A stretch of 64,000 bases of DNA from Bilabrum cf. latius (Eukaryota), in the NCBI GenBank assembly GCA_965178125.1, contig OZ237737.1:372001-436000 (forward strand). The letters run 5' to 3'. Below the pieces are notes generated by a model, which was given only the letters and a program-made list of their open reading frames with translations, did no database searches and was not told the DNA's origin. Positions 1,757 to 62,663 of this stretch are shown in pieces; positions within the stretch are counted from its first letter, which is position 1, and each line of letters begins with the position of its first letter. The position numbers and the translations under genes were made by a program.

Positions 1757-3187
1757 TCATCGGCCGAACCCCCCTCCGGCCGCCCCGGCGCCTCCTCCCA
1801 GCGCCCTCCCCCCGATCGCACTCACCCGCTTCTTGCCCGCACCAGCCCCCGCCCCGATGCCTTTCCCCTTGCCCCCCTTCATGGAGCCCCCCATGAGCGC
1901 GTCGAGCGGGTCACCACCCCTCTTCTTCCTCAGCTCGTCGATGGCGCTCCGCTTGGGCGTCCAGGACTTGAGTGAGCGAATAATCTCGGAGAAATCCGGA
2001 CGGTCGGACGGCTTGCTAGCCCAGCATCGCGGGATTAGTTCCCTGACGGCATCCGGCGTGTCGCCCCGAAGCACGTGCATGTCCGGCCGCAGACCAGCGG
2101 GCACCTTCTCCCGGATCGTGTCCACTGGGGTGCCAGCCAGGGGAACGCGCTGGGCGAACAGCTCCCACAGCATCATACCGAAGGCGTACACGTCCACTTT
2201 TCGGCTGAATGGTTTGTCCTGCAACAGCTCCGGGGCCATGTACGGGGGCGTGCCGGCTGTGGTAGTCTTGGTCTGCACCAAGCCGAAATCGCAGAGCTTG
2301 GCGGTTCCGTCGCGGGCGACGAGCACATTGTGGGACTTGAGGTCCCTGTGGATGATCCCAGGGGAGCGCCCGTGCAGGTACTCGATGGCCAGCGCGGTCT
2401 GTGTGGCCCATCGGACGAGCTCGGCAGGGTCCCTAGGCTTGGGGCGGCGGCTCGGGCCGCCGCCGCTCCCATGCAGGAGAGAGAAAATGGAGCTGCCGCA
2501 GCGCTCCATGACGAAGAAAAGCTTGGGTGGCTTGGTGCATGCCCCGATCAGCTTTATTATGTTTGGGTGCTCTACTTGCCTGCGTGTGCATTTGAGCCAG
2601 CGGAGGGCATTTGCTTGTCGGTTTGGCGCCCTCGTCACGTCTGGAGCCCTACTTCGAGCTAACGATAGGTAAACTTACGACATAACCTAAAGCTCATCCA
2701 TAAATTCTTTCTTGAGCGCCTCGTCAACTTTGGGATCTACCTGCGCGCAACGTTCAAACGTCTTGGAGAGGGTGCTCAACACTTGACCGAGGTGCAGCGC
2801 GGGAACTAGCGCAGAACTTGCACTGAAGGTCCAACTTACTATTAATTTGATTGCCACTCCCTACCCCTGATATAGCCCGGAGTGCACCACGGCAAAGCCG
2901 CCACCGCCTAGCCTGTCATGTACGGTGATGTCGTCAGACCCAATGATCTTCCAGCCAGTGCTAGCACTAGCACGCCTGATACCCGAGGTTGCAGATGAGA
3001 CTTCACCCGCAGCAGCGGACTTCGAACCTGCGCCACTAGCGGCTGCTTCGGTTGTAGCTGGGGCAGCGCGCGATTCCGCTGCTCTACTTGATCCCTTCCC
3101 AGCGGGTGAGGGCTCGCCATCCTCCTCAAAATCGTCTTCGTATTCGTCCTCGCTCTCTTCTCGCGCAAATACGCCAGAGGATGCCAT
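1757..3187 (-). CDS. Tyrosine-kinase-like (TKL/MAP3K-like) Ser/Thr protein kinase, 3 exons (3187-2840, 2740-2679, 2579-1757)
   Basis: GGGGFAVV glycine loop, G*GVAIK, EFMDEL*VMS, HPNII, HRDLKSHN, DFG, GTPPYMAPE, DVYAFG. Two 99-nt GTAAGT..CAG introns. In-frame TAG at 2861 and 2687 must be read through. Ends TGA TGA. Confidence 0.92.
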
Positions 3188-3283
3188 GTTTGATTCACTC
3201 TTGCTTCGGCCGAGCGCTTGGGGACTTTAAATTCCGAGTCAAATATGCATTGCACTGTAATGCGCTACATCGGGAACCAGGAG

Positions 3284-3663
3284 TGATGGTTGGTAATGTG
3301 GATCTGTCGATCAACCGCTCAATGCTTCGCTCCCCCAGCACTCTCCCTCTCCCGCCACGCGCCACTCGTGCGCCGCTACCCACCGTCGCCCACTCGTCTG
3401 TCGCTAGCACGGCCGTCTCCGTGCCGCCTAGGCCCGGCTGGCCGCTTTGTCCTGCCCTCAGCTTCCACTCTCGTACCTAGTACCTGCTCCTCGTAATCTC
3501 CTCCTTCCGTGGCGCTTTGGTTTTGGCTGGTGCTTCCCCGGGCACTGGGCAGGCGGCACGGACCTTTCAAGCCGCTATGGGGACTACCTGCCACTGGCCA
3601 CGGGATCTACACTGGGCCCCCCTTTTGGCTGTTCGCCCATCGAACGCCGCAAGGAACACCCAC
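3284..3663. repeat. Split direct repeat B2 (380 bp), copy of 5103-5482
   Basis: tgatggttggtaatgtgg...aaggaacacccac occurs twice with offset 1819; no mismatch noticed. Confidence 0.95.
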
Positions 3664-5490: not shown

Positions 5491-6729
5491 TTAGAGCCCT
5501 GAATCCCGTTCACCCCCACCACTGCTCACTGGGCTCCGGTGAAGCTCCCTGCGTTGGGATTCCCAAATCTTCAGAAGTTCTGGGATGGAGCCAGCTCCCA
5601 CCATAGCCCGAAGAATCCCACTCCTCGTAACCCTTGCCGCTTCCATCAATGAGTAACGATCATACACCGCTGGCATGTTGGGCAGAGACCACCCAGCCTG
5701 GCCGTGCACGTACTTCTCGTCCTTGGTTGGGTCCGTCTGGCGCAATGCTGACACTCCCGCACTCTTGAAGGCGTACACACCCTCCCCCTTGCGGTGCACA
5801 GGAATCCCTTGCGCTGTTATCCACTGCAGCGTGGCACTGTGCGCAGCCCGTGTTCGAGAGGCGAATACTTCCCCGCGCTGCCCTTGTGTTGGCTACCGAA
5901 CTGATACCCACCACTTCAGCCACCGATACGGGCACAACTCCTCGAATCCATCCGGCAAGCATGGAATGACCGCTGGCGGGCGCTGCTCGGGGTTGCCGCC
6001 GAGCACCCGCGACTTGTACCGCTGCCACCCAATCAGTGCCACGGGAACAACCTCGTTGTCATCAGACGCTGCAGTCCACTCTATCTCCCCTATTGCCAGA
6101 TGCACCAGATCTGGCCACCGGGCCAAGCCACAGAATGTCCCCACATAGCAGCACATAAATGTATCGAGAACCGCTGGTGTTGAGTTGTAGTCCGCACGGG
6201 CCAGCGCAGCTGGGCCTTGCCACATCGAATCCCACTCTGCCTGCAGCTACCAGGCCATCATCACTAGTGCTCGCAACGTTACAGGGTTGTCCACCAGGAC
6301 ACGTAGGGCACGTACCGCGTCCGGATCCGTCGCCCCGGCACATCTACGCTTGTAGCCGAGCAGGGCCAGTTTGACCTGCCTGTACTCCACGTCTGCGAGT
6401 GGGGTACGCGGGAACTCCGCTGACCTGAACCACGCCGTTTGCGCTTGGAACAATCGCAACACTGTGGCATACTTCAACCCGGCGGCGCACTACTCCGTCA
6501 GCAAAGCCCACATGGCCTCCACCGGATCCCCGACCTCAAGTTCCGCCTGCATGGTCAGATTCCGCCTGCGCGCGTCCAGAGCTCCCTTGCCGAGCTGCTG
6601 ACTCTCCTACAGCATCAGGGTCCTAGTCGCCGCCACCGCTGCTCGCCGTTGTGCCGCAGCACTTGAGCCTGCTCGTCCAGTCACTGGGATCAGCTCCCCA
6701 AATGGTCCTGCGAAGATGAAATGGTGCAT
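5491..6729 (-). CDS. Retroelement tyrosine recombinase (ORF3), overlapping the end of ORF2
   Basis: Four same-frame fragments joined by TAG at 6607, 6490, 6247 and 5893. GLARWPDL (catalytic Arg box), YAFKSAG, GW..MPAVY (catalytic Tyr). Ends in TAA. Start codon is uncertain. Confidence 0.82.
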
Positions 6730-8926
6730 GAAAAGTTGAGTCAGATGTCGCCCTTGCCGCCGAGACAAACCCCGTTTTGCCCACGCGCTGCCCCGCCGTC
6801 TACACCAGTTGACCAGCACCGTCCTCCACCCTGCTCAATCTATCGCATGCCACCATGATCGGTGTACTTCGCCTCTACCACACGGGGAAGATAACGTATC
6901 CCAAGTTCTCAGCCAGCCTTCCAATCTCTCGCAGCTCATCTCGCTACCCAGCCTTCATCGAGCCGCCCTTCCGCAGCAAATTTGGCAGGGCTTGATTGTC
7001 TGACAGCACGAAGAGCGCCTCTGGGCAAGTCTGGCTCCTCGCCAACTAGCCTGGTCCTGACAAAAAAGCTCGTAGTGATGCTAGTTCGCGTGCCGTACTG
7101 GATAGTAACTGCATGTCCTCGTGGAAACCCATTTGCATCAAGCCAGAATCACCATTGCCTCGGCGCCACATTGCACCCAGCCCATGGGCTGACGCGTCAG
7201 CACAAAACACGGATGCTCTCCCCTCCGGCAACGGGTATATCGGTGCAGCTGCTGCCGCTGTCAAGATACCGCGGTCCCTACATGTCAGCCACCACTCAAA
7301 TTCCTCGTTGAACTCTGCCGTCCAGATGTGCCTACCACCTTTGCGAGCCTTTGCAGCCGCCTAGTATATCGCAAACACGTGCTGCGAAGCGTGGGGGATT
7401 ACTGCCGCAGCCGCGCCCAACTGTCCTGCCAGTTTCTCCACAGCCTTGACCGCCAGCGCACTCGTTGCTAGCATGTTGAAAGCTCGCATTCGCTCAACGG
7501 TCCTCAGCACTGCGTGGATCCGTGGCCATCGATCCGAGCGCAGTGTCACCTTCAAGTGGGCTCCCAGGGTAATCTTTAGCCCAAGGAACTCAATCACCTA
7601 TGTTGGAAAGGTAAGTTTGCTAGGCTATATCCTCATGCCAATCCCCCGCGCTACAAGCACGGCACACCACAACAACTACATAGTGCGGGCCTCCGTACGT
7701 GCTGACAGAAAGCCATCATCAATGTACCCAAAAGCCCAATGTGCGGTGCGCAGTCGCACCCCCGCTAGACACTCTGCCAACACTACTGATGCGACAAAAC
7801 AGCCCATTCTGCAACCAAACGACAAGACCACAAACTAAAACATGCTGCCACCCACTCCGCGAACTGCCATCCATCGCTGCAGCCCCGGTGCCAGCGCTAT
7901 ACTATGATATGCCGCCTTGAAATCGAAGGCTGCCCCCCATTCGTGCCTGTCACGTCCCACGCGCTCTGCTAAATGCCGAGCAAAATCACCATACCGGAAA
8001 CGCAAGTCAAGAAATGCCTCGTTCGCGCCCGAGCGCTTCATATCCGTGACTAGGCGCTGCTTGCCAGTCGTGTCCTCCCGCTGCACCAAGCGTGGTGTCT
8101 GACCCTCCCGCTGCTGTACCTCGATTGCGGTCCTCTTGGCAACGAACATAGGCGTCACCTAGACCGCGGCGCCCTCCACCGGTCGAATCTTGCCTGCACT
8201 CGCTGCTGCTTCCACGAACGGGACTACATCCTCCTCGTCCGCCGGCAAGTCCTTCGGGTCAGCCCGTACCGGCTGCGCCCCCAACACCTTCAAGACTGCC
8301 TCCGCCCGAAGCCCATGTCGTGCCAGTCCAACAAACCCCCGGCCCGCTACACAATCGGGCTCCACTGCGCCCCGCGCCCCGCAGCGTCGACAACGAGCCA
8401 AATGTGCCTGCCATGCTCCACGAGGTGACAGCGTACACGGCTAGCGTGCTGCCCATCGCTCCCCCTGCTGCAGTTCGCCCCTACGCTCCCAGTGTGACAA
8501 CGTTCCATACCAGACGTCCAAAGCAGATGATGGTGCCTAGCCCGGTGGGAATGACCGCAAGTCAATCTTGTCCCGCTTTGCCAGGCATCGTGCCCAAGCC
8601 TACCACATCCCGTCCGCACCCAATGCTGACGGCGCATCACCAGTCATCCCCGCTCCCGCATCACCGTCATTGTCCACAGAATAGCCGGCTGCTTCCATCT
8701 GCACCTCGTGCCATCGTCTCGAGGGGCCTGCAGATGCAACCTAGTCCAACAATTCGTCCGCGTGTTCCATGATGTCCGTCACAATGCACCGCCCATCCAG
8801 TGTCCGCAGGCTCGGCTCACCACGCTGTAGGGTCGGAGTCTTCTGCTGAGCCAGGATTTTTGCGCTGCTTCCGAAGATAGTGCACATGCCTACACTACTG
8901 CAGCCCTTCCCCTGGCTCGGGCCGCG
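6536..8926 (-). CDS. Retroelement reverse transcriptase / RNase H (ORF2)
   Basis: TPMFVAK, KQRLVTD, FDFKAAYHSI, F*FVVLSFG, YIDD, PT*VIEFLG, EWW, ADAS, SDNQ, DRLSR. About 15 in-frame TAGs and no TAA/TGA until the TGA at 6536. First ATG is at 8887. Confidence 0.92.
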
Positions 8927-11467
8927 TCACCCATTCCCCGCTAGTCGGCCACTTCGTCTTGGGGAGGTACGGTGCTCCGCCTACGTTTTGGGCCCCGATG
9001 TCGTCCCTTTTTGGCGCTCTGACTCCTGCTGCGACTCTTGTCCACCCGCACTCGCGCTACTGCTGCTGCTGCTGCTGCTGCTGGCCTTCGCTGACTACCG
9101 TTTTGCCGCTGCCCCCGCTCCTCCAGCTGCGGCCCCATGCTCCTTTGCCACCCGCTTCGCTCGCTCCAATGCTGACTTGTCTATCGCGGCTGTCACATCC
9201 TCCCACGCCATAGCGCTATGGTTGCCTGCCGGATTCAGTCCCAGTAATTCCCACGTGGGCCCCACCTGAGTCTGCGTCATCCGCAGCGGGGTCTCGTTCT
9301 CGCTCCGCAACTACCACAGTCGAAGCACCGCAGGAGTATCCATTCTCCCCACTGGTGCCACCCTATGTATCAAAATCATGCGCAGAGCAGTTGCTAACAC
9401 GAAATGCTGACCCGTATTGGCTGTGTCCCCGTTGCCTCCACCTGCCGTGCGGACTGCTGCCGCATGAAGGACCATCCCTAAGCCCAAGAACATTCTTCGC
9501 ACTGCAATCTCCAACGCCTCGTGAAGCTTGCTCATTACTGCCCTGGCTTCCGCATGCTTATCCTGGTGCAGCAGTGTCGCAAGTGTGATAACCACCTTCA
9601 GCAACGACGTGCTCCCTGCCACGACCCACTCGAGCGCCCCACACACCGATCTGGTCAATATCGTGGGTAATCGAAAAATGTTGCCTTGTTCCAGTTCTGC
9701 CACTCCCGACAACACGTGCTACCCGCACTTACTCGCAAATTGCCTGATCCCGTCCGGCATGAGCAAATCACCCGCCTCCTCCAGCACCGGTGCCACATGA
9801 AAGCTGCGGCCAGATCCTGACTCCCGGCGAAAACCAGCCGCACTCGCCATAGAAGCGAACATTATCTGCGCGGGGCGTTCAATCCGAAGTAACGAAATCT
9901 TTGCCTTGTCCGCACTCGTCAGCGCCACTGAGGCCAAGTCCTTAGCTCTCTCGCCTTCCTCCCCGAGTTCGGCCAAATACCGTGCACTGTCCCTAAATTG
10001 AAGCACCTCCTAAGACCGTACGGTGTCGTAGAACAAAGAGTCAACTCCCTTCGCCGTGGGAATGGAATTATGCACTTCCTTGGCGCCGTCTCCATCGTCT
10101 GCTCCGACCTGGCCCTGGTATGGTGACTTCTTGCAGGCGCCGGCTGACGACTTAATCGCCTGGGTGGAGTGCTCGGGCCGGGCATTTAACTCAAGCGCAA
10201 GGGCACGGAGCAACTACAACGTACCATTGGGCTCACCCGATGCCATGGCCGCAACCGCCTGTTGAATTCGCTTGTCGATCGCGTCACTCGCGGTCGCCTC
10301 TCCTGCTCCCGCGGATGCTCCCTCGACCTCTTGCTCGCGCCTTGCCGCCTTGGTGCGACGTTCCGAATCCGCCACAATGGCCTCCCAGGGAGCTTGTGCT
10401 TCCCCCACCTCTTCCGCTCTCCCCCTTTTTCCCAGCGTTGCGCCCGAGATGGTGCCCATCGACGCCTGCGCCCCAAACACCGCGCTGGCACCGCGGCTTG
10501 CCGTTGGACCTCCCGCTGGTTTGCCACCCGCCCCAGCATCGGCCGCAGTCACTCCACCATGGCTGAATCCGCCCCCAAAATCAAAGAGGCCCAGCTCGCT
10601 CGGCGGATGGCCTGAGGTAGCAGTCGCCCCTGCACCGGCCCCCCCGCTTGGGGCAGGCAGTTTCCACCCAAACCCGCCACCGTCCATGATGCCCCGGCCC
10701 AGTGAGTGCGCTCCCATCGGCCCCCCGGCTACACGTTCAGGCCTTGACCCCGTGAATGGTGCTGTTGTTGATGCCCCGGATGGTACCGGGATCACCGGTG
10801 CTCCCCAGAGTGGGAGCACCCCATTGCTGCCCGTCGCATCTTGGTCTGAGTTTCCACCCGTCGCCGCGCTCGCCGACGAACTGCTGCATGTTGGCTTCGG
10901 CATCGCATGGATCAGCATGTTGGGCAACAGAGCATCGAACATTTCGTCGAGGAAGGGGATCGTCCACGGTGCCACCCGGGCATAGCCGAACAGGGCCGCA
11001 CGTGCTGCCCACGCTGCCTGCTGTGGCGTTACACCACTCTGTAGTGGTTGCTGCAGGCATTTCCAGAGCTCACCATGGTCCTCGGGCATCAGATCGTCCT
11101 TTGAGAACCCTGCTGCCACTTCCAGAGCGCCACGCAGGCCCGATTCCACGTCTGGCGTCGTGGTCGGTTTGAACACGCCCATAACGGCAGCCCCTGCGCC
11201 CAGGGAAGCGACCGGCGTGTGGCCGCGTACGCAGCTGCCCAACAGAGCCCGCTGCGCATCTGCCCCTTCTTTGTTTAGCATGTTCACAGCCTCGCGTACG
11301 ACAGGCTCCGAGAAGCTCGACATGTGTTCAACAGCCATACCTTGAAACACATCGAAAACACCACCCACAGCGTTCACCCTCCGCCTCACCGTTGGGGCCA
11401 TACGAGTGGTCATTCGCGCCACGATCGCCCGGCTTTGCTTCCATTGCGCACTCTGCTGGCTGAGCAT
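8927..11467 (-). CDS. Retroelement ORF1 (putative Gag-like), 846 aa
   Basis: ATG at the boundary of repeat A1. Fragments are joined by TAG at 10214, 10010, 9719, 9311, 9095 and 8981. Ends TGA. The Gag assignment is positional only. Confidence 0.75.
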
Positions 11468-11620
11468 TATTTCCTTTATCTTCTTCTGAATTCCCCTAAG
11501 TGAGAGCGCTGGTCTCGCTCAGCTCGTACTCGGAATTGATCCGATCAGTATACCACTATCGGCCCAAACATCACTGTACATGGATGCTCTGTATTCGTCA
11601 GTAGGGGTGCCATTGAATCA
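11466..11620. repeat. Split direct repeat A1 (155 bp), the 5' terminus of the element
   Basis: Matches 4948-5102. Confidence 0.95.
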
Positions 11621-49976: not shown

Positions 49977-50103
49977 GGCCGACTGCAGCTGGAGCAGACC
50001 GAGACAGGCAGTGTTTCCGTTCGCGGTGTTGTGAGGCACGTCGTTGTAGAGCGGAGCCTCACAAACGGATATGCCTTCTCCTGGACACCACATTAGAAGC
50101 ACG

Positions 50104-50589
50104 ATGGCTGCCGAGGGGAGATCGTCGAACAGAGTTGTTTCTGATATGGACGATCATTCCAAGATGAAAGTGAGAGGCGCAAGAAACCAACTGATGCTAA
50201 AGGAGCCCCCCAAGATTTTAAAGCAACTATTGCAAGGACTTTGACCATCTCTGCGTGATAATGCCGACGCGTGCCGCAGGAAAATGCTCATACTTGGATC
50301 AAAGAAGCGTTCGACTCCAGCGAGCACAAAACAGAGAAAGACTAGGCTGCACATATCAAGACGAGGTTCACCGAAACGTACGGTCCGACTTGGCACGTTA
50401 TTGTCGGCGAGGATTTCAAGGCTTAGTTTTCGCATGAATCGAAGACATTTTTCTTTGTGAACAGTGAGTAGGGCGCCTGTTTGCAGGGTTACGTTGCTTC
50501 AGATTCCATTCATATCACTCCAAATCCTGCTGAAACTACTCTCCTTCACCACAGTTGGCAAGACGAATGCGTTGATATGGAGAACATGA
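50104..50589 (+). CDS. Dynein light chain (LC8 family), 3 exons (50104-50169, 50280-50463, 50555-50589)
   Basis: SDM..., EKD*AAHIKTRFTETYGPTWHVIVGEDFKA*FSHESKTFFFVNIGKTNALIWRT. TAG at 50343 and 50424. Absent from the ORF track. Confidence 0.85.
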
Positions 50590-51059
50590 TTTGATTTGTT
50601 AGAATATATATCTACTGTCTGACCTTGCACAGCAGCTGCACTTAGTATCCCGGCAAGTAGGTCTGTGGTCAAGCAACTAATGGGATGGAGTGGAATATCT
50701 GCCGGCACAGTATAACAACGCACTGCGTCTGCAAAATCTTGGATCCATTGTAATCCTGCGGACGACGAAGCGATCCACGATCCACATCATCCCTTGGGGC
50801 GCGAGCCGGACGCCCGCTGCAGGCCCCACCTTGGCTGCATTATGCCTCCACTGGCATCGCCTGTTCCAGGTCAAGCGACCTGCCTATAGAGCACACCCAG
50901 CCCACACCACCACGCTCACGTACCCGTCAACAACACGCAACACAACACAAAGTGTGCACATGACAACACATCCGATGCACATTCACCGGTCCGGAATTGG
51001 AAAAATGATGAGTAGTCTAACGCGTTCCTCGTTCACTCTATTCGCCTAGCGATGCTAGC

Positions 51060-52553
51060 ATGCAGTGGTTCGGTCATTTAAACCCAATACTTGAATCTCG
51101 TGTGGCAGATAGTGTCCCGCGAGACAGCGTGCCGGCTTTGCCCTCTCTTGTGCCGTCATGGGTGGCTGGCTGCTTGGATATCGATGTGTTGCAGGTCTCA
51201 GAGACAAAGGATGTCGATTGCGAGTCCATCATCAGCAGCATCAAATCTAGTACCCGGAAGACATCGCTTCTTGTCGGTCCCGTGGTCCTGCAAATCGTGT
51301 TTGTGCGAGATGCAGAAATGCCACGGTTCAAGCCAGCTGGCGCTTCAGAAGATCAGTTGGATAGCGGCGCCGGCAGAACCCTTGCCATGGAGCTGACAGA
51401 TGGCATTCGGAATTGCAAGGCATTTGAAAGCGTCCGCTTGGAGTCAATTCAAGCATCGGCGTTGTACCCAGGGGTTAAGCTGCTGCTTCACGACTGCCCA
51501 ATAGTCGCCGGTATGCTCGCCCTGCGCCCATCCAATTGTGAACTGTTAGGTGGTCATGTTGACAGCTTGTTCTCGGCATGGAAGGCAAAGTCAGGCTTGT
51601 CTGGTCCAGCCGAGGTAGAGGCCAGGCGGGAAGCTGCGTTGCGAAGCAGGGCCGGGGGACCGCCCCCCTTCGTGGGGTTCGGAGGCACAGGCGGATGCGC
51701 AGGCCTGGCAGCACCACGTCCCGCTGCCAACTCCACAGCTGCATCCGCAGGCACAACGACCCCAAAACGCAGCTCGAAGGAGGAGAAGGGGCCGGCCCCG
51801 ATCCAGAGGACCGTGCCGGCCGCAGGGGTGGCTCTACCGGCATTCCAGCGACCATCTCACTCTCACCCCTCCTCCTCCATGACGGAGATGAGCGCGGCCG
51901 CTGCCTCGGGCAGTGCCGGGTCTACACGAGCTGTTGCTTCTGTAGCAAGCGCTTAGAGATCCGCGACTCCCGCGTATCCGTGCCGTCTGGTTGCTTCGTT
52001 CGCCGAGGCCCGCAGAGCGGCCGATGCTTCGAAGCGGGCCGCCGCAGCTGCCGGGGGCAGGTCCGTTCCCTCCGCCCGCAGGATCGTGCGGTGCACCGTA
52101 CTAGCCGTTGAGCTGGTGGCGGCCCCCAGACCAGACCTTGACCCGGAGCCCTGTCTCTGCGTCACGGCAACGGACGATGCAGGCAGGCAGGAGGCCCTGG
52201 CCGCGTCCGCCACTCTACGGGGCCAGCTGCTGGGGCTGAGCTCTTTTGCCGCTGCGTCTGGCGCCAGCCCGGGCTCAGGCAGTGCGGCAAGGAGCAGCGC
52301 TGCTGCCGCAGGCGCCGGCAAGGTTGTAGCGGGACAAGTTTGGAGTGGGAGAGGGAGTTCGCCGTCGTCGCCGCCCATGCCCCGCCTGTCAGACATCCTG
52401 AGACAGCCCGCTGGAGAGAGGGCCATAGCCGGCAGGATCGCAGCGCTGCAGAAGCGGTTTACGCTGAAGGGTGGGCTGCGCATGGGGGCGGAGGTGGACT
52501 TCAGGGTGTCTCCATTTGCGCTCCTGATTGGGATGCATGCACCGCCGGGCTGA
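51060..52553 (+). CDS. RMI1-like OB-fold protein (RecQ-mediated genome instability 1 / TDRD3 N-terminal fold)
   Basis: GPVVLQI, RTLAMELTDG, PGVKLLL, GMLALRPSNCELLGGHV. TAG 51954 joins a C-terminal domain. Ends TGA. Confidence 0.75.
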
Positions 52554-52687: not shown

Positions 52688-55600
52688 TCACTCGGCCCTG
52701 CTACCGCCTTCCGAACGGATAGAGTTCGGGGAGACCGCACCCCCCCGGGGCAGCCCGGCAGAAGTCTCGCTCCCATCATGGGACGAACCCCCTGCAACAC
52801 CCTCGCTCGAGTTCTCGGGCAGGGGCAATCCAACGAAGCGTGTCAGTTGGCGTGATATTGACACCGATGATGATCTGCCAGAGTCTGAGCCCAATTGGGA
52901 CGAAGCCACAGCACCATCTGCCCCTGTGCCAAGCCCCCCAATCTAGTCCGCACCATTAGACGAAGTCCTCACTGCAGCAGGGGGGCCAACCTGAGCCGCC
53001 GAGCGCGGTGTTGTCTCTCCGTTCATCACAACACCGGAGAGTTCTACCATGCCGCCAGCAGCCTCAGGTACTGCCCCGCTCATTCCCTCATCGCCCACGA
53101 CCGGCAAGCCGCTGGTAGATCGGCCTTGTGAGCCGCTCGAAATATCTCGCCTTAATCCACTGGGGACTGACATTCCTAGACCATTGTGGCTGTTTCCACG
53201 GCTTCCTGTGGAGATGGGCGGCGGTCTGGTATCGAGCTAGTTGGTGATACGATATAGGCCAAAGTCACGAGGATCATTCTGGCTCGCTGGCGTTCGATTT
53301 CGATCGACATGGGAGGCGTCTGCCGCTTGGCCCAGCACCTCGGGCGCCTGATCCCCTGATTCCTCCGGTAGGCCAGACAGTAAGTCGAACTGGCCGTTAT
53401 CAAGGTCACCAGCAGATCTCAGCGACGGGACGAATGCCTCCAGCTGGGTCTGCTGTGGATGCATCGCTGCAACCTGGCCACCACCGTCCATGCCTGTCAG
53501 CCCATGTGCCATTGCACGTGACGAAGCGCTGCTCAAGTACTCTGCACTGCTGCGTTGGTACATGCTACCGTTGCTCGGGCTGATGGTGGGCTGCATCGAA
53601 CTTGCAGAATGGGCGGAGAAGAGCGGGTGGGGAAGGCTTGGAGGGTCGCCGTAGCTGGGAACGGCCAGATTGCCACCGACACCGTCCATGAGACTGCTGG
53701 CTTCAGACCGAGCATCGCTCAAAGACCCGTCGACCGACCCGGGTGTCTCCGAGCGAGCTTGGCTCGACAGGCCGACAAGCGCATCGGCAGCCTCCCTGTG
53801 ATCCTCTGGGGACGGCTGCGGCAGCTGCGCGGGTATCCGCCCTCCGCTAGCACTGGTCTGCTCTACGCGCCTGCGCTTGCTTGGACCACCCGAGGCGCCG
53901 TTCGATGGGATTTCACGTCGACTGGCACGCGGTGCGCCCGTACCATTGCCGACCGTGCCTTTAGGCTGGGCGTGGCGGTGTTGTGCCGGACGGGGGCGCT
54001 TTGCGCCAGGAGCACTCCCGTTGCCCGGAGCACCTCCCTGAGCAATTCTTTCACTCGTCCACCGAACGATGGGAGACGGCAGCTAGCTGTCATCTACATC
54101 GCTGACAATTCCGATCCTGTGGTCAGATTTCAGCACTTTGTTCGCCGCCCGGCCGGCCGTGGAGGCAGTACCTACTGAGCTCCCCGTCGACAGGCGCCTG
54201 CGAAGGCTCATAGCTGGGCTTCTCGCTGACCCGGGGTCCACTGCCCTAAAGCTCATCGTTTCTTCAGAACGAAGCGCCCGGAGTGTTCCGTTTCGTCTAT
54301 TGGTCCCACCTCCCCTAAATGCTGCGCGTCCTGATGTGCCACGGTTGCCAAGCCGCTGACTGCCTTGCTGTTCTAGGCGATCGAAACTGGAGCCAATCTG
54401 AAGTGAAGACACGCTGGAGGAGAGGCCCTGCCTGCTACCTCTGCTTTCATGCGGCTCGTGAGCGTCTGCCTCGCTTGTGACCAGCGGTTGCTGCGATTTC
54501 GTAACGCTATGCATACCAGTAGGCACCGACACGTTGATGAAAAAGCTCTGTTCCAAGCGCGTGCCTCGGCTCTGAGCCTGGCTACTAGCAGCCTCCCATT
54601 GCATCGACTCCTGCCCTCGTCGTCTAAACGCAGCCATGTGTGCTCCTTGCGCGGCGCCCAGTTCAGCTGCATCGCTCGCACGCAGCTCCCCCATGGGGAT
54701 TGCAATTGATAGTTGCCGCTGCTCCATGGACCCTCCGGATATATGTGACATGCCGCGGGAGCTCGATGCAGCCGAGGAGGAGCTCGATTGCTGGGTTGCA
54801 GCAGCCAGCAGAGGTCGCAGGTGACCGCTGACCTTCACGTGGTCACGAGGACGCAGCGAGTGGCGCGTGCCCCGCCCGCCGTTCAAGGTCCCAACTGCTG
54901 CAGCTCCTGCTCTTGCCCTTGACACTGCGGTAGCTGCCGCCGTGGTTTGTGCTGCCGCTGTTGTGCGCTATTTGATCGATACCGCAGCACTGCCGGGCAA
55001 CCTGACAGCAGCAGCGGCAGCAGTCGCAGCAGTCGCAGCAGTCGCAGCAGGGGCAGGCATGAGTGGTGGTGCATGCGCGCGGGAAGGGTCCAAGGCAGCC
55101 GCGAGTGCAGCTGGCAACGCTGGCTTTCTTGGGGGCGGATCCTTCTCTAGGACCGTGACTCGCCCCAGTTCATCGGGAGACAGCATCTCTCTGATTTTTG
55201 GGAAGGCGAGGAGTGGGTTGCGGTATGCCGCGTCCCTCGAGGTCAGCTCGCGCGGGGGCAAGGCGCTGATACACGCGCACCTCGGGTGGATCGTCTAGAA
55301 CTGCTCCCTCGGCAGCTTTGATCTGAGCAGCTGGAGAACTTTGCCGGGGATCGGCATGGGGTCCCACGGATCCATGCAACACATCATGATGCAAAGCATA
55401 GTGTTGTCAAAGTTAAACTTGACGACACTCTGCAGGCCCCGATAGCGCGCTTCCAGGTCTCGAGCGACGGCCGCCACCAGGAGAGATTTCTTGCCGCCGA
55501 TTTTGAGGTACCTTCCCTTCTTATCTTTGGAGTGGTCACCCCTCGGCACACTGGGGTCGTCCTTGACCCAAATTTGGGCGCGCCACAGCCACAGCGAGGC

Positions 55601-55921
55601 GCCCCGCACTTGGTCGACACCATAGAAGCCACCGCGCTTCTACTTTCTACTGCAAGGGTTGCGCTTGGCGAACCGCCTTGGATCCCGTCGTTCTGGACTG
55701 TTAAATTCGGGACATGTTGGGGGAGCTCCGTTCAGGCCGTGCCACTAGTAAAACGCTTCTCGGCCTAACTCCATATTTTGTCTGAGTCCGTGTACTTTAT
55801 GCTATATCCCGAGCCCTCCAAGGTCCAGATCGTCTGGCGTCTCGATCAAGACGTACAACTTTGTGCTCCATGCTTCTGAGTCCCGCCGACACAGCTCAAA
55901 TGAGCCAGCTCCAGCCAGCAT
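52688..55921 (-). CDS. AP2-domain putative transcription factor with long disordered tail (about 1077 aa)
   Basis: GFYGV..WRAQIWV..RYLKIG..AAVARDLEARYRG..KFNF (about 55400-55630). Single frame open except for TAGs. Ends TGA. Start is uncertain. Confidence 0.72.
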
Positions 55922-56100
55922 GAATAGTTGCTCGATCCGTTTACCACGCACTTGCTGTACTTTTAGGGCAATAAATGCGGTGCACTATACAAACTATTGT
56001 CAATATATGCGAATATTACACTAGTAAGCTGATATAAACAGCCGGTATGGCTTTGATGAAGGCAGACGACCTTCGAAACCCAAGTGCTATTCCTGTGGTT

Positions 56101-57568: not shown

Positions 57569-58882
57569 TCAGCCTTCCAGAGCTTCCTCTCGCCTCCGAA
57601 TGACGCTCTCCATGCTCCCCGCCGCCGAAGCCGGGATCACCGAGACCTGGCTGCCTTCGGCCATCCCCGCCTTGGCCATGATCATCAGCGAGCCCCCCGA
57701 CCCTGGCCCGCTCGCATCCACACCGCCCCCGCTGGAGCTTGGGGTCTCGATCGACCCCGCCAGCGATGCGAGCACGCTGCCTCCTGTGTTCCCCGAAGTT
57801 GCGCTGGAGCTCGCGCTGGGGAAGTGGTTCCCATGCCGGCCTGCCCTCCCCAGGTGCACCCCGCCCGGCGCCATGATGCCCAGCCCGGGAGGTGCCCAGC
57901 CAGTACCGGCAGCATCCATAAAGGCACCATGGGCTACACTGGGATCCGCCATATGCCCACCAGGGCGTGTCTCCTCGTCCATGCTGTCGCTTTCCATGGC
58001 ATGGTTGACGATTTGGGCGATCGTGGCAGCCGGTGGGACGGCGCGCACGTGCCCCGAGCTGCTGCTCAGGTTGAAGTCGTGTGACTGTGTTTGCGTTGGG
58101 GATACTGTTTCCATGGGGCTGCTGGGGCTCAAGGCAGGGATGCCGGGTACTGCCATTTCTCGAAGACTGGCAACCGCCCGCCGTGTTTCTGGGGCGTTCA
58201 GCCTTTCAGTTTTGTCCTAGTCAGGTCCCACTTCCACATGTGTAATATCCACCACATTGGCCCCGGGGGGCAAATACTGCCGTAGCTCTGGCATTGCCAA
58301 AGGCAAGTCTGCCGTGGCTTTGGCTCTCGCTGACAGTTGGATCAGCTGGTAATCTCGCACACTGGCTGGAGCTTGCATGCTGCGCTTGCCGGCCTCTTGG
58401 TTGTGTGTCTCATTCCTTTTTATGTCCCAAGCAATCTTCCGTGGCGCATCAAGTTCAATCAGACCTGGCTTCTTGGAGGCTGTGGAAACGCTGCTGTGAT
58501 CCTCTTTCGTGTTCAACTTCGTTGGCCCTTCTTCTGCGTGCGAACAGAGGTAGCGCACGATTGAGCACTACATAATGGACTACACGAACACCAGAGAAGG
58601 CCCGGTCAATCATCACGGAGCAAACAGCTCAACAACACTTGGAAAAGAACTCAACAAGCCAAGTCGTCTAACCTGTCATACTACGACCTACATGCCCACT
58701 GCATTTGGCTTCCGTCGCCTTCTTGGTATACTGCGTAACATCGAGCAGTCGAAGAGAGGCAGGAACTGACAGTGCGAGCTCCGGTAACACGACAACGCGA
58801 CATCATGGTTGCGCCGAGCACTGACATATTTGCGTGGCGTGGATGCCGTACGAATTGACGTCGAGGAAGCCCCGCAACCCAT
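57569..58882 (-). CDS. Hypothetical protein with MGCGASS N-myristoylation/palmitoylation motif, copy 1 (exons 58882-58826, 58730-58673, 58533-57569)
   Basis: Phase-consistent GT-AG introns, TAG at 58217 read through, TGA stop. The structure is conserved in copy 2. Confidence 0.65.
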
Positions 58883-59066
58883 GGTAATTGAATGGATGAA
58901 ATGCTTTACACCGTGGCTACGAACTCGCTGCAGTAGTAGAGAGTTTGGCTTCAATCGATGGCGAAGTGTTGCCATCATCAGAACGCAGGCATCGAAGTCG
59001 CCCGAGGTGACGGTGGTCGCAAATGGAATGGCTGAACAGTTCGTAATTTACACACCGAGCTGAATA

Positions 59067-61018
59067 ATGAATCGAGCTGTCTCTGTAACATTTCTGTGTG
59101 TATTGGCACATGCAACGGGACAGACGGGTGGTGATAAGAGAGGCGCCATCAAACATGCGCACTTCGCTCCTGCAAGATCGAATGAAAGTCGATGGCTGGG
59201 GTCTGCTGTGCAGCGGACGACGAACTCTTCTCGCGTATTAATTGATTGGAATACTGTTGATGCAGTGTCGAACTCCTCTGCGACATGCTAGGTCGTTTCG
59301 AACGCTATACTTGTTCGGGAGTATCCTCCTTCAAGGCTCAGCTTCCAGCGGCTCCGAGAACTAACGGCAATCGGAATGCAGTACGTGCGGTACGTCCCGT
59401 GGTTTCCACTCCCATGGTTTGGGGTTCCCGAGCTGTCTCCTGGGAAATGGAACGCAACTCTTGCAGGACAGATGCTTGAGGACCTGTGGGACGCCACGGG
59501 TGGCAACAACAGCGAAGCGCGCACGATCATCAACTTCAGCACGCAGCCTGTATGGTTATACTCTGACGTGTCTGATTATTCGGTCCCGTCTGATCCTCTG
59601 CAAACCGATTTCAAGTACCCGAAAGGCACGCAGCTGGCAGATCCGACCGGCAGAGCCATGGCAAGCTACTTCGCTGACATCGTGGCGTGGATCAGGTACG
59701 GGAAGCACAACGGTCCCAAGTACCCCATGGACCACGATGAATTCCTAAACGAGCCGAACGCGTGCCGGGGCCAGACGATCGAGGACTACACGCTCTACTT
59801 CGACCGCTTCGTGCAGGCAGTGAGGGGCGGCCTGCCCAAGGGGGATAAGGACTCGCTGGCAACCGCCTGGACTGGCTGCTCCCCTTCTTGAACGAGTCAA
59901 CGCACCTTCCAGGCACCTTTGATGCCGTGCAGAAGGGCCTGGTCAGCTTCCACCACTACGCCAAACCCAGCAGCCGCATGGACCCCGTGGCCTTCGAGAG
60001 CATCTTCGATTCGGCGGACGACTGGATCGAGGATTTCGTGGTGCCGGCCGTGCGGGCCCGGGCTCTCCTCAGCCCCACAACTCGATTCGATGCCAACGAG
60101 CTCGGCGTGGTTCTGCCCGATGATGACAACCCAAACGCTCCCCAATTCCCGCTGGTCTACTGGAACGCCGCCGCTGCCCTATTCGCGTACGAATATGCAC
60201 GTCTGGCCAAGGCCGGCGTGGAGGTGGTGGGCATGTCACAGTGGGCGGGGAATCCGCCAATGACCATCGCGGGGATGAAGGCAAGCAACCAGCACCCCGG
60301 TGTCAGCATCATGAACTACACCACGGGAGAGGGCACGGCCAGGTACTGGACGCTCAAGCTGATGCTGGAGGCATTCCAGCCGGGGGACAAGCTGGTGAGC
60401 ACCACCGTTGCCACTTCACCCGTATGCGGTGTCATGGATCCAGAGCTGGACGCGGGCAACTACAGCAGCGTGGCTTTGCAATGCGCCGGGCAGGGCGCGA
60501 CCATCAGCAGCATCGACTTTGCCGCGTTCGGGACACCGTACGGGACCTGCGGCGACTACCACCACAACGCCAGCTGCGATGCTTCCAATGCCACGGAGGT
60601 CGCCGAGCACCTGTGCTTGGGCAAGACCAGCTGCTCAGTTCCGTCATACCCTCAACTGGGGGACCCTTGCTTTGGCTCGGTCAAGCGGCTGATCGTGCAG
60701 GCCCAGTGCAGCGACGGGCAGGGCGGGGTCGCGCACCCCGGACCGTCTCCCTACTTTGCCCAAGGATTTGCGCCGGCTTCAGGTGCGTCTGGACTCAAGG
60801 GGCAGAGGCGTCTCCTCGTCGTGAACACCAACGCGGGGCCGATCCAAGTTGACCTGAGCGGACTGTTCGGGTCCGAGCAGATGCCCGAGCGTGGAATGTC
60901 TGCTCTCGTGGTCGATGAGGCAACCGGGTTTGGGCCAGCAAGGAAGGCACCCATCGCCGGGAACGGATCCCTCCCACTGTCAGCGTTCGCTGTCGCGGTC
61001 GTGTTCGAGGAGACTTGA
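59067..61018 (+). CDS. Secreted clan GH-A (GH39-like) glycoside hydrolase with inserted SUEL/galactose-binding lectin domain; one apparent frameshift near 59845
   Basis: Signal-peptide-like start, TC*VVSN, YVRYVPWFP, INFSTQPVW, FLNEP (acid/base), SFHHYA, NELG (nucleophile), ARYWTLKL. Lectin motif C..ISSIDFAAFGTPYGTCG..CLGKTSC..GDPC..KRL. Confidence 0.78.
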
Positions 61019-61070
61019 AGCAGGCCTGACACCGGCAGCCCGCCGCCCTGCCAACAACGTCTGGTTCAAG

Positions 61071-62663
61071 CAGCCAGGATGGCTTCGATGAAGGCAGATG
61101 ATCTGTCAAAACCAAGTGCTATTCCTGTGGTTGCGGCGCGCGCAGTGTTGCGTGCAAAAACCGATTTACATCCTTACGGAACGCGGATGCCTCATCCGGG
61201 ATCCAACAAGTTGGTTTACTCCCATTCAATGCAAAAACTCAGCCTTCCAGAGCTTCCTCTCGCCTCCGAACGACGCTCTCCATGCTCCCCGCCGCCGAAG
61301 CCGGGATCACCGAGACCTGGCTGCCTTCGGCCATCCCCGCCTTGGCCATGATCATCAGCGAGCCCCCCGACCCTGGCCCGCTCGCATCCACACCGCCCCC
61401 GCTGGAGCTTGGGGTCTCGATCGACCCCGCCAGCGATGCGAGCACGCTGCCTCCTGTGTTCCCCGAAGTTGCGCTCGAACTCACGCTGGAGGAGTGGTTC
61501 CCATGCCGGCCTGCCCTCCCCAGGTGCACCCCGCCCGGCGCCATGATGCCCAGCCCGGGAGGTGCCCAGCCAGCACCGGCAGTATCCATCGAGGCACCGT
61601 GGGCCATACCGAGTTCCGCCATATGCCCACCAGGGCGTGTCTCCTCGTCCATGCTGTCGCTTTCCATGGCACGGTTGACGATTTGGGCGATCATGGCAGC
61701 CGGTGGGACGGCGCGCACGTGCCCCGAGCTGCTGCTCAGGTTGAAGTCGTGTGACTGTGATTGCGTTGGGGATATTGTTTCCATGGGGCTGCTGGGGCTC
61801 AAGGCAGGGATGCCAGGTACCGCCATTTCTCGAAGACTGGCAGATGCCACTCGTCGTTCAGGTGTGCTCAGCCTTTCAGTTTTGTCCTAGTCAGGTCCCA
61901 CTTCCACATGTGTAATATCCACCACATTGGCCCCGGGGGGCAAATACTGCCGTAGCTCTGGCATTGCCAAAGGCAAGTCTGCCGTGGCTTTCGCTCTCGC
62001 TGACAGTTGGATCAGCTGGTCATCTCGCAAGCCAGATTCTGCACTGGCTGGAGCTTGTATGCTGCGCTTGCCGGCCTCTTGGTTGTGTGTCTCATTCCCT
62101 TTTATGTCCCAAGCAATCTTCCGTGGCGCATCAAGTTCAATCAGACCTGGCTTCTTGGAGGCTGTGGAAACGCTGCTGTGATCCTCTTTCGTGTACAACT
62201 TCGTTGGCCCTTCTTCTGCGTGCGAACAGAGGAAGCACGCGATTGAGCACTACATATGGAATATTTGAGATCGCTACCAGAGAAGGCCCGGTCAATCATC
62301 ACGGAGCAAACAGCTCAACAACACTTGGAAAAGAACTCAACAAGCCAACTCGTCTAACCTGTCATACTACGACCTGCATGCCCACTGCATTTGGCTTCCG
62401 TCGCCTTCTTGGCATACTGCGAAGCATTGAGCAGTCGAAAAGAGGCAGGAACTGACAGTTCAGGCTCCGGTGACACGACAACGCGACATCATGGTTGCGA
62501 CGAGCACTGACATATTTGCGTGGCGTGGATGCCGTACGAATTGATATCGAGGAAGCCCCGCAACCCATGGTAATTGAATGGATGGAATACTTTACACCGG
62601 GCCTACGAACTCGCTGCAGTAGTAGAGAGTTTGGCTTCAATTGATGGCGAAGTGTTGCCATCA
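61071..62663. repeat. Segmental duplicate of about 56039-58977 with an internal 1362-bp deletion
   Basis: High identity to 57459-58977 and to 56039-56101, fused at GGTTG. Confidence 0.9.
61239..62568 (-). CDS. MGCGASS-motif hypothetical protein, copy 2
   Basis: Paralog of 57569-58882 with the same splice sites, the same TAG (61887), a frame-preserving 12-nt insertion, and TGA stop. Confidence 0.62.

What the first reader, a model, noticed from the sequence alone, without database searches (positions are those of the whole stretch)
1757..61890. Non-canonical nuclear genetic code: UAG reassigned to a sense codon (most likely Gln), with UGA and UAA still stops
Seen: in nearly every gene the ORF fragments share a frame and are separated only by TAG, never TAA/TGA, and reading through restores whole conserved domains, including in essential genes (SPT5 last KOW, prenyl synthase, kinase subdomains II-III, LC8). 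Gln identity: PI-PLC SHNSYLDGD*L and VAVNG*N; RT F*F and PT*VIEFLG; NDRG DLPG* (family DAPGQ); EML TRS*EYF and RGVS*LAFS (another repeat of the same gene reads RWSQRFF and RGVCQLAFS); GH TC*VV; TAG inside CAG runs (47388, 47445/47448, 24737, 17250). Established: UAA and UAG nearly always share a meaning in nuclear codes. UAG-only reassignment is known from few lineages (e.g. the fornicate Iotanema, a rhizarian, some ciliates). Inference: this GC-rich, intron-containing genome does not look like those, so it may be an independent, undescribed reassignment.
Basis: partly seen in the sequence, partly recalled or inferred. Interest (0 to 1): 0.97.

Follow-up and report, generated by a model that had tools for sequence, protein, structure and literature searches.

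The report
Eukaryote that reads TAG as glutamine
This GC-rich, intron-containing eukaryotic genome uses the stop codon TAG as an ordinary glutamine codon while TGA (and apparently TAA) still end genes, a rare code variant known from only a few protists, here in an organism that could not be identified.

Summary
About 20 genes in the window are open only if TAG is read through. In 14,606 in-frame codons there are 89 TAG and no TAA or TGA. Nine of 13 long TAG-read ORFs carry Pfam domains; 0 of 10 control TGA-read ORFs do.

Contigs from three runs carry GT..AG splice joints that the DNA run lacks. They still hold 18 in-frame TAGs in four genes, with no base differences. So the TAGs are neither intronic nor edited.

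Where homologues are invariant the residue is Gln: PI-PLC 109/109 and 99/101, EML 19/19, RT 84/125. Over 16 columns Gln beats the next residue by 23 log units.

Nineteen of 21 ORF ends are TGA and two are TAA. Reading TAA as sense joins nothing.

This matches NCBI table 15, already known from Iotanema and a few ciliates. The GC content, the introns, a retroelement and the mitochondrial genes do not fit those lineages. A single-gene tree rejects a fungal or aphelid position.

The organism is unidentified. The tRNA and eRF1 could not be examined. It is probably a new lineage with a known code variant.

The parts
1757..3130 (-). TKL-type protein kinase gene. The C-terminal exon is 1757-2674. Predicted upstream exons carry TAG at 2861-2863 (G-x-G-V-A-I-K) and 2687-2689 (F-M-D-E-L-x-V-M-S). 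The in-frame TAA at 2675-2677 lies inside a GTAAGT splice donor.
   Evidence: Pfam PK_Tyr_Ser-Thr 5e-40. Translation and donor sequence. TAG coordinates. No RNA was laid here, so the exon bounds are predicted.
5491..11620 (-). DIRS/Ngaro-like retroelement with split direct repeats. It has three ORFs: 8927-11518 (6 TAG), 6536-8926 RT/RNase H (15 TAG) and 5491-6834 (4 TAG). No in-frame TAA or TGA.
   Evidence: RVT_1 7e-9. RT columns: position 443 is Q in 84/125, position 364 has Q commonest at 34/128. Repeats 3284-3583 = 5103-5402 and 4948-5102 = 11466-11620.
12659..13981 (-). Mitochondrial carrier gene with an in-frame 165-nt intron at 13313-13477. TAG at 12698-12700 lies 12 codons before the TGA at 12659-12661.
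   Evidence: Mito_carr 8e-64. Spliced contig in run X5..
14040..18557 (+). 1,505-codon ORF with a DMFA2_C-like domain. 9 TAG; ends at TGA.
   Evidence: PF20254 3e-51. TAG coordinates.
18766..20560 (-). Polyprenyl (COQ1-type) diphosphate synthase mRNA. Three exons: 20322-20560, 20124-20230 and 18766-20011. 9 in-frame TAG (5 in the N-terminal presequence-like part, 3 in a loop, 1 near the C-terminus). Stop TGA at 18815-18817.
   Evidence: Spliced contigs in X5, X6 and X8 with no base differences.. polyprenyl_synt 1e-62. PDB 3aq0 1e-72.
20627..21300 (+). Small three-exon gene with introns at 20758-20858 and 20935-21031. No TAG; ends at TGA.
   Evidence: Joints in X6 and X8. Translation.
21215..25474 (-). 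1,419-codon low-complexity ORF. 8 TAG, including 24737-24739 beside a His/Gln run. Ends at TGA.
   Evidence: No Pfam family.
25631..27600 (-). NDRG-family gene with introns at 26107-26227 and 27360-27472. 4 in-frame TAG (27219, 26901, 26577, 26328). Stop TAA at 26048-26050.
   Evidence: Ndr 1e-18. Spliced contigs in X5 and X6.. At 26901 the TAG aligns to Q in NDRG1 and M in NDRG2.
27600..35579 (+). EML (HELP + double propeller) gene with three tandem units and an intron at 27764-27894. TAG at 28518, 28857, 28878, 29232 and 35574. The last TAG is followed directly by TGA.
   Evidence: Beta-prop_EML_2 E = 0. EML1 4ci8 3e-88. Column 71 is Q in 19/19. RNA contigs cover the first four TAGs.
35963..37918 (-). 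PI-PLC paralogue 2. TAG at 37535-37537 (G-D-x-L) and 36566-36568 (N-G-x-N), plus 37835-37837 upstream. Ends at TGA.
   Evidence: PI-PLC-X 5e-41. Homologue columns are Q in 109/109 and 99/101. Paralogue 1 has CAA and CAG at these sites.
38053..41568 (-). PI-PLC paralogue 1, with a ~1.7-kb acidic repeat insert. 4 TAG (39076, 38797, 38623, 38077). Ends at TGA.
41535..45220 (+). SPT5 gene. One TAG at 45071-45073, 48 codons before the TGA.
   Evidence: NGN and KOW1, 2, 4, 5 plus CTD families. The column at the TAG is variable and the downstream KOW is not significant.
45369..50153 (-). 1,594-codon ORF with an FWWh domain. 14 TAG, three of them inside the domain. One lies at 47388-47390 in front of five Gln codons.
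   Evidence: PF14922 1e-9..
50262..50468 (+). LC8-type dynein light chain exon with TAG at 50343-50345 and 50424-50426.
   Evidence: Dynein_light 2.3e-17 spans both TAGs. PDB LC8s have I/M and Y/D at these columns.
51021..52553 (+). RMI1-like gene. TAG at 51954-51956; ends at TGA.
   Evidence: RMI1_N_C 9e-18. No family detected after the TAG.
52688..55999 (-). 1,103-codon ORF with no known family. 10 TAG; ends at TGA.
57569..62291 (.). Glycosidase-like / SUEL-lectin gene at 59064-61018 (+), with TAG at 59289. It is flanked by two 92%-identical minus-strand ORFs (57569-58609 and 61239-62291) that share TAG at two aligned positions.
   Evidence: SUEL_Lectin 2e-14. Paralogue alignment.

Best explanation
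The nuclear genome this window comes from uses a variant genetic code in which UAG is a regular sense codon for glutamine. UAG makes up about 14% of putative Gln codons here. UGA is the usual terminator and UAA most likely also terminates, which matches NCBI translation table 15.

Shown: in-frame UAG is kept unedited in spliced mRNA, and it falls on invariant Gln positions of homologues.

Inferred from established knowledge of other reassignments (Panek et al. 2017, PMC5304391, passages read): decoding is by a tRNA-Gln with anticodon CUA. That anticodon pairs with UAG but not with UAA. It would act together with an eRF1 that no longer recognises UAG efficiently.
For: (1) Only TAG interrupts genes. 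There are 89 TAG, 0 TAA and 0 TGA in 14,606 in-frame codons. Nine of 13 long TAG=X ORFs have Pfam families, against 0 of 10 TGA=X control ORFs.

(2) RNA. Contigs of runs X5, X6 and X8 carry eight GT..AG joints that are absent from run X1. They cover 18 in-frame TAGs in four genes (prenyl synthase 9, NDRG 4, EML 4, mitochondrial carrier 1). No 'other letters' were reported.

(3) Residue identity:
- PI-PLC columns are Q in 109/109 and 99/101.
- The EML column is Q in 19/19 (17 external homologues plus 2 internal units).
- RT column 443 is Q in 84/125.
- Summed log-likelihood over 16 columns: Q -37.3, next best A -60.7.
- Window paralogues have CAA or CAG opposite TAG at 5 of 11 compared sites.

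(4) Stops. Nineteen of 21 ORF ends are TGA and 2 are TAA. Making TAA sense lengthens no supported gene except through introns or UTR.

(5) Public standard-code gene calls of near-identical retroelement copies break exactly at the TAG positions (P0264 covers 445-521, P0294 77-108, P0274 214-255).
Against: - Several TAGs sit on columns where homologues are not Gln: EML-64 (Y in 11/19), LC8 (I/M and Y/D), RT-661 and RT-684 (I/L/V), and PLC1 sites (E commonest). Some are one base from TAG (TAY, GAG, AAG), and these columns or paralogues are less conserved.
- TAG is not enriched next to Gln codons.
- Two genes have TAG just before the TGA: EML has TAG-TGA, and the mitochondrial carrier has TAG 12 codons upstream. 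So a terminating role of some UAGs is not excluded.
- TAA evidence rests on one 64-kb window of a GC-rich genome.
- There is no tRNA gene in the window and no genome is held, so the decoding machinery is unseen.
- The RNA nature of X5, X6 and X8 is inferred from splice joints. The runs are only guessed to be RNA, and X5 is flagged 'probably DNA'.
Confidence: 0.87

Rival explanations
1. UAG has a context-dependent double meaning: Gln inside genes and stop near mRNA 3' ends. This is known for stop codons in Condylostoma, karyorelicts and Blastocrithidia.
For: EML ends ...TAG TGA. The mitochondrial carrier has TAG 12 codons before TGA, after the last conserved helix. With about 20 genes, the use of UAG at gene ends cannot be measured.
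Against: No supported gene needs UAG as its stop. Every ORF with a family runs on to a TGA or TAA. UGA is abundant as a dedicated stop, so an ambiguous UAG is not required. In the table-15 ciliates no dual meaning was found (PMC11687900, passages read).
Confidence: 0.07
2. Both UAG and UAA encode Gln (table 6, as reported for Amoeboaphelidium, ulvophytes, hexamitids and many ciliates). UAA would be merely rare because the genome is GC-rich.
For: After the two TAA ends, a TGA follows soon; it is 5 codons later in NDRG. So TAA read-through there cannot be excluded. GC bias does lower A-ending codons (CAA 131 against CAG 413).
Against: There are 0 in-frame TAA against 89 TAG in 14,606 codons, where about 28 are expected from the CAA:CAG ratio. 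Adding TAA to the sense set leaves 9 of the 11 longest same-strand gene ORFs unchanged. It lengthens the others only through validated or predicted introns or UTR.
Confidence: 0.04
3. UAG is sense but encodes another residue (Tyr, Glu, Lys, Leu, Ser or pyrrolysine).
For: Some TAG columns favour Y, E or hydrophobic residues. UAG=Leu, UAG=Ser and UAG=Glu are known in other eukaryotes (PMC5304391 and PMC11687900, passages read).
Against: All three columns that are at least 90% conserved are Gln. Log-likelihoods: Q -37.3, E -62.3, K -65.7, L -76.7, Y -92.2.
Confidence: 0.01
4. There is no code change: the TAGs are in pseudogenes or introns, are assembly errors, or are edited away in mRNA.
For: None found. 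One retroelement could in principle be decayed.
Against: Only one of the three stop codons occurs, across about 20 unrelated genes. Eighteen TAGs persist in spliced contigs of up to three runs from two studies, with no base differences. Two paralogues keep TAG at the same two sites.
Confidence: 0.01

Closest known systems
NCBI translation table 15 users: the fornicate Iotanema spirale (PMC5304391) and the ciliates Hartmannula sinica, Trochilia petrani and Protocruzia tuzeti (PMC11687900). Passages of both papers were read.
   Same: UAG = Gln while UAA is kept as a stop. UAG is spread through ordinary genes. A CUA-anticodon tRNA-Gln is the predicted decoder.
   Different: This genome is about 60% GC. 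It has GT-AG introns of 91-165 nt and a retroelement inside a 64-kb contig. TGA is the main stop. It also encodes a mitochondrial carrier and a ubiquinone-type prenyl synthase. From recalled knowledge, ciliate macronuclear genomes are mostly AT-rich with tiny introns, and Iotanema is an anaerobe. Neither lineage was in my tree, so the difference is inferred, not tested.
Table 6 (UAA and UAG = Gln): Amoeboaphelidium protococcarum, ulvophyte green algae, hexamitid diplomonads, oxymonads and many ciliates
   Same: Stop-to-Gln reassignment. Amoeboaphelidium is a non-ciliate aerobic protist.
   Different: No sense TAA was seen here. The window's SPT5 joined with four fungi is rejected (AU p 0.0001; single gene, long branch). 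The aphelid genome paper is not in the library, so its GC content and exact code could not be compared.
UAG-only reassignments to other residues: rhizarian exLh (Leu), Scotinosphaera (Ser), ciliate PL0344 (UAG=Glu, UAA=Lys)
   Same: The meanings of UAG and UAA are uncoupled.
   Different: The residue here is Gln.
TAG=Gln ('code 15') phages, and giant-virus bins best called with single-stop reassignments (PMC13524828, passages read; earlier scan notes e1-5483516 and e1-5483507)
   Same: Same codon and same residue.
   Different: Those are viruses. This window is cellular, with spliceosomal introns and SPT5. No link to them was tested.

Membership tests
Table-15-type nuclear code (UAG=Gln; UAA, UGA stop) | In-frame UAG inside conserved coding sequence, present in mature mRNA | tested here: met
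   Pfam domains span TAG. Eighteen TAGs lie in spliced contigs with no base differences.
Table-15-type nuclear code (UAG=Gln; UAA, UGA stop) | UAG columns correspond to Gln in homologues | tested here: met
   Q in 109/109, 99/101, 19/19 and 84/125. Q is best by 23 log units over 16 columns.
Table-15-type nuclear code (UAG=Gln; UAA, UGA stop) | UGA terminates | tested here: met
   Nineteen of 21 ORF ends are TGA. Zero of 10 TGA-read ORFs have a family. The prenyl synthase mRNA ORF ends at TGA, 49 nt before the contig end.
Table-15-type nuclear code (UAG=Gln; UAA, UGA stop) | UAA terminates and is not sense | tested here: met
   There are 0 sense TAA in 14,606 codons against about 28 expected. 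No gene pieces are joined by TAA. The NDRG and retroelement ORFs end at TAA. The sample is small: one window.
Table-15-type nuclear code (UAG=Gln; UAA, UGA stop) | UAG is not used as a terminator | tested here: inconclusive
   No gene requires it. But EML has TAG-TGA and the mitochondrial carrier has TAG 12 codons before TGA.
Table-15-type nuclear code (UAG=Gln; UAA, UGA stop) | tRNA-Gln with CUA anticodon; altered eRF1 N-domain | not testable with these tools
   No tRNA gene in the window, no Rfam match and no whole genome held.
Table 6 (UAR=Gln) | UAA also used as a Gln codon | tested here: not met
   The only in-frame TAAs next to gene pieces lie in validated introns or in a GTAAGT donor.
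Ambiguous all-stop codes (Condylostoma, karyorelict, Blastocrithidia) | UGA and UAA also appear in frame in conserved genes | tested here: not met
Holomycota / aphelid origin (Amoeboaphelidium, the known non-ciliate aerobic stop-to-Gln case) | Housekeeping protein groups with Fungi | tested here: not met
   In the SPT5 quick tree the window is sister to a 7-row clade that includes a diatom (SH-aLRT 99). The AU test rejects window + 4 fungi (lnL lower by 51.6, p 0.0001). Caveats: one gene, window branch 1.51, the group was named after seeing the tree, and no aphelid sequence was in the set.

The most novel reading that the evidence does not exclude
This is an independent, so far unreported origin of the UAG=Gln / UAA=stop code in a GC-rich, aerobic, intron-bearing protist lineage outside ciliates, fornicates and Holomycota. 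On one gene tree it is nearest to stramenopile sequences. UAG already makes up about 14% of Gln codons. Such an organism would be a concrete example of the cellular host type needed to explain giant viruses that read TAG as Gln.
Probability: 0.45. Interest if true: 0.72.

Novelty: new member of a known kind. Interest (0 to 1): 0.62.

Why it matters
Nuclear codes in which UAG and UAA have different meanings are very rare. According to the papers read, they are a handful of ciliates, one fornicate, one rhizarian and one green alga (PMC5304391, PMC11687900).

A further case in a GC-rich genome where UGA is the dominant stop would add an independent data point on how a stop codon is captured. It would give a non-ciliate genome in which to find the CUA tRNA and the eRF1 changes.

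There is also a practical consequence. Standard-code gene calls of this organism's sequences in public protein collections are chopped at TAG. Its proteome and any phylogenomic placement will be wrong unless table 15 is used.

It may also bear on which hosts could support viruses that use TAG as Gln. That is a lead from earlier scan notes and PMC13524828 and was not tested here.

Tried and rejected
- Whole genome: not held. So no Codetta-like genome scan, no tRNA-Gln(CUA) search and no eRF1 inspection.
- tRNA and Rfam scans of the window: nothing found.
- Organism identity: not obtained.
  - Best SPT5, PI-PLC and EML homologues are only 35-48% identical and mostly unnamed.
  - Cluster look-ups gave no names.
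  - Two Atlas searches gave no useful taxa.
  - The metagenome scan found one 28% relative, L001.
  - Run and organism names are coded.
- The look-up of sequencing runs listed no holder on record as RNA. RNA origin was inferred from the splice joints instead.
- The SPT5 C-terminal 136 aa across the TAG has no PDB hit at E up to 10, and only sub-threshold SH3-like Pfam hits at E 0.05-0.11. A local phmmer run against 152 homologues gave E of 0.3 or worse.
- RMI1 after its TAG, the unspliced kinase N-terminal piece and the third retroelement ORF have no Pfam family.
- A motif search for canonical LC8 strings found nothing. The gene was found by listing ORFs.
- 'TAG in polyQ' was tested as a statistic and rejected.
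- In one search the two extra PLC 'C-half' comparisons used a wrong frame and are disregarded.
- Earlier scan notes hold nothing on this genome or on look-alike windows.
- Literature: nine searches found no report of a GC-rich non-ciliate UAG=Gln eukaryote. The library lacks most subscription papers, including the aphelid genome paper. Supplements were not opened.

Full report
**What the window is.** The window is 64 kb with no N and 58-66% GC. It holds no tRNA gene and no Rfam family. No whole genome is held for it.

It is densely packed with eukaryotic genes on both strands:
- a TKL-type kinase
- a retroelement
- a mitochondrial carrier
- a DMFA2_C-domain protein
- a COQ1-type polyprenyl synthase
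- an NDRG protein
- a three-unit EML protein
- two tandem PI-PLC paralogues
- SPT5
- an FWWh-domain protein
- an LC8-type light chain
- RMI1
- a glycosidase-like / SUEL-lectin protein

ORF length alone is not decisive. In this GC-rich DNA, reading TGA as sense gives even more long ORFs (27). I therefore used homology as the arbiter.
- Of the 13 longest TAG=X ORFs, 9 have Pfam families (3 of 6; 6 of 7).
- Of the four without a family, one is the antisense of PI-PLC.
- Of the 10 longest ORFs that need 5 or more TGA read-throughs, none has a family at E up to 0.01.

Domain matches run across the TAG positions. Dynein_light, for example, scores E 2.3e-17 over a 69-aa stretch with two TAGs.

In 15 ORF or exon pieces totalling 14,606 codons there are 89 TAG, 0 TAA and 0 TGA. 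The pieces were picked as TAA/TGA-free, so this count is partly circular. Still, TAG occurs in frame about as often as the trinucleotide occurs overall (851 in six frames), while TGA (1,641) and TAA (380) are absent.

**Introns, editing and pseudogenes.** One sequencing-run search on window 26043-35579 listed 16 runs with coded names. I laid Logan contigs of X1, X5, X6 and X8 on window 12500-29400.

X1 covers the stretch collinearly. X5, X6 and X8 each hold contigs with joints that X1 lacks. All eight joints are GT..AG on the gene's strand. They skip 13313-13477, 20012-20123, 20231-20321, 20758-20858, 20935-21031, 26107-26227, 27360-27472 and 27764-27894. These contigs therefore derive from spliced RNA, although the tool only guesses 'RNA?' and flags X5 'probably DNA'.

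No 'other letters' and no indels were reported in any run.

I rebuilt the spliced frames by coordinates. Eighteen in-frame TAGs are covered by such contigs:

| Gene | TAGs covered | Stop |
|---|---|---|
| Prenyl synthase (one 513-codon ORF) | 9 | TGA |
| NDRG | 4 | TAA |
| EML, N-terminal part | 4 | not covered by the laid stretch |
| Mitochondrial carrier | 1 | TGA |

Seventeen of the 18 are covered in two or three runs. The TAGs are thus exonic and unedited. A pseudogene explanation would also need TGA and TAA, which never occur.

| Column | Result |
|---|---|
| PI-PLC paralogue 2, position 128 | Q in 109 of 109 |
| PI-PLC paralogue 2, position 451 | Q in 99 of 101 |
| EML unit 1, position 71 | Q in 19 of 19 (17 external + 2 internal units) |
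| EML unit 1, position 64 | Y 11, L 5, other 3 |
| EML unit 1, position 189 | mixed (S 6, C 4, A 4, Q 3) |
| RT, position 443 | Q in 84 of 125 |
| RT, position 364 | Q commonest, 34 of 128 |
| Seven other RT columns | variable; two favour I/L/V |
| PI-PLC paralogue 1, two sites | E commonest, Q second and third |

The PI-PLC result agrees with PDB alignments to PLC-gamma2 and PLC-delta1.

Solved structures add a few more points:
- NDRG aligns to Q in NDRG1 and M in NDRG2.
- The prenyl synthase C-terminal site aligns to N, D or A.
- The LC8 sites align to I/M and Y/D.

All three columns that are at least 90% conserved are Gln. Over 16 columns with a uniform pseudocount, the summed log-likelihoods are Q -37.3, A -60.7, E -62.3, K -65.7 and Y -92.2.

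Within the window, paralogous codons opposite TAG are CAA, CAG, CAG, CAG, CAG, AAG, AAG, GCG, ATG, TAT and CGG. Two 92%-identical ORFs share TAG at two aligned sites.

The non-Gln columns are what one expects when Gln becomes reachable in one step from TAY, GAG or AAG. That reading is an inference.

TAG is not enriched beside Gln codons (5 of 89 against 7.3%).

**The other two stops.** Of 21 ORF ends examined, 19 are TGA. Some of these may be exon ends. The spliced NDRG ORF and the third retroelement ORF end at TAA.

Adding TAA to the sense set leaves the ORFs of EML, FWWh, DMFA2, PLC1, PLC2, NDRG, both large retroelement ORFs and the 52-kb ORF unchanged. It lengthens others only through validated introns (prenyl synthase), a predicted intron whose GTAAGT donor contains the TAA (kinase), or a few upstream codons.

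If TAA tracked TAG as CAA tracks CAG (131:413), about 28 sense TAAs would be expected. None is seen. So UAA is most likely still a stop, but the sample is one window.

Whether UAG ever terminates stays open. EML ends TAG-TGA, and the mitochondrial carrier has TAG 12 codons before TGA.

**How it most likely works.** The shown steps are that UAG is transcribed, kept in mRNA and falls on Gln positions.

The rest is inferred from what is established for other reassignments (PMC5304391, passages read). A tRNA-Gln with anticodon CUA reads UAG but not UAA, because of a C:A mismatch. The release factor eRF1 has presumably lost efficient UAG recognition. Neither gene could be looked for.

At about 14% of putative Gln codons (89 of 633), and with presence in housekeeping genes, the reassignment looks old and complete rather than leaky read-through.

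**What it is closest to.** The code equals NCBI table 15. According to PMC11687900 (passages read), UAG=Gln with UAA kept as a stop is known from Iotanema spirale, Protocruzia tuzeti, Hartmannula sinica and Trochilia petrani. UAG=Leu occurs in a rhizarian and UAG=Ser in Scotinosphaera.

Amoeboaphelidium is described as reading both TAG and TAA as Gln (PMC6299283, PMC5304391; passages read).

This genome has several features that, from recalled knowledge, do not fit ciliate macronuclei or an anaerobic fornicate:
- about 60% GC
- canonical introns of 91-165 nt
- a retroelement with split direct repeats
- genes for a mitochondrial carrier and a ubiquinone-type prenyl synthase

**Placing the organism.** I tried to place it and mostly failed.

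The best homologues are distant and mostly unnamed. Look-ups gave no names.

A 31-row SPT5 quick tree puts the window as sister to a 7-row clade containing the diatom Thalassionema (SH-aLRT 99). It lies outside animals, fungi, plants and green algae, and Pelomyxa. However, its branch is very long (1.51), and alveolates, rhizarians, excavates and aphelids are not sampled.

An AU test rejects the window plus four fungi as a clade (lnL lower by 51.6, p 0.0001; the group was named after seeing the tree). This counts against an aphelid on one gene only.

**Novelty.** Nine full-text searches found no report of such an organism. The library is incomplete, and the aphelid genome paper is not held.

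My verdict is a new member of a known kind. It is a table-15 code, probably in a lineage where it has not been described. The chance that the organism is already published with this code is substantial.

**Side result.** Public standard-code gene calls for near-identical retroelement copies are fragments that start or stop at the TAG positions. Database proteins from this organism are therefore truncated.

Earlier scan notes describe giant viruses that read TAG as Gln and lack a known host. The giant-virus catalogue paper raises the same host question for single-stop reassignments (PMC13524828, passages read). No link to this organism was tested.

Noticed in passing
window 3284-11620: A retroelement on the minus strand with three ORFs (863, 796 and 447 codons) framed by split direct repeats. 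The repeats are 300 nt (3284-3583 = 5103-5402) and 155 nt (4948-5102 = 11466-11620), both 100% identical. This is a DIRS/Ngaro-like layout. The third ORF has no Pfam family. It carries 25 in-frame TAGs and no other stop, so it looks intact under the variant code.
   Followed up: partly
proteins P0264, P0274, P0294, P0267, P0270: Public protein collections hold short ORF fragments that are 78-100% identical to the retroelement RT. Their ends coincide with its TAG codons. These are standard-code gene calls chopped at TAG in other copies or assemblies.
   Followed up: partly
window 35963-41568: Two tandem PI-PLC paralogues, 83% identical over 607 aligned residues. The upstream one carries a ~1.7-kb insert of Glu/Asp-rich imperfect repeats between the X and Y domains. 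Both end with identical last codons and identical 45 nt downstream.
   Followed up: partly
window 27768-35579: The EML gene encodes three tandem HELP + double-propeller units. Units 1 and 2 share a stretch of about 50 identical residues although they are only 48% identical overall. This suggests recent gene conversion.
   Followed up: no
window 57569-58609 and 61239-62291: Two 92%-identical minus-strand ORFs of unknown family flank the glycosidase-like/lectin gene. They keep TAG at two aligned positions.
   Followed up: partly
window 13313-13477: The mitochondrial carrier intron is 165 nt long (a multiple of three) and open in frame. The unspliced gene therefore reads as one ORF, and only the RNA contigs reveal the intron.
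   Followed up: yes
runs X1-X8: Near-complete copies of the 9.5-kb query (62-99% of its words) occur in runs filed under four different coded organism labels in four studies. Small shares occur in a 'protist metagenome' and an 'algae metagenome'. The organism may travel with other cultures or be filed under several names. This was not pursued.
   Followed up: no
window 50343-50345 and 50424-50426: The LC8-type light chain has TAG at two positions where solved LC8s have I/M and Y/D. This is a divergent paralogue, and the clearest case where Gln does not match the family consensus.
   Followed up: partly
window 3-1487: A 494-codon open-ended ORF with five copies of a C-T-F-x-P-x-(I/V)-N-like motif and no Pfam family. 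It has no TAG.
   Followed up: no
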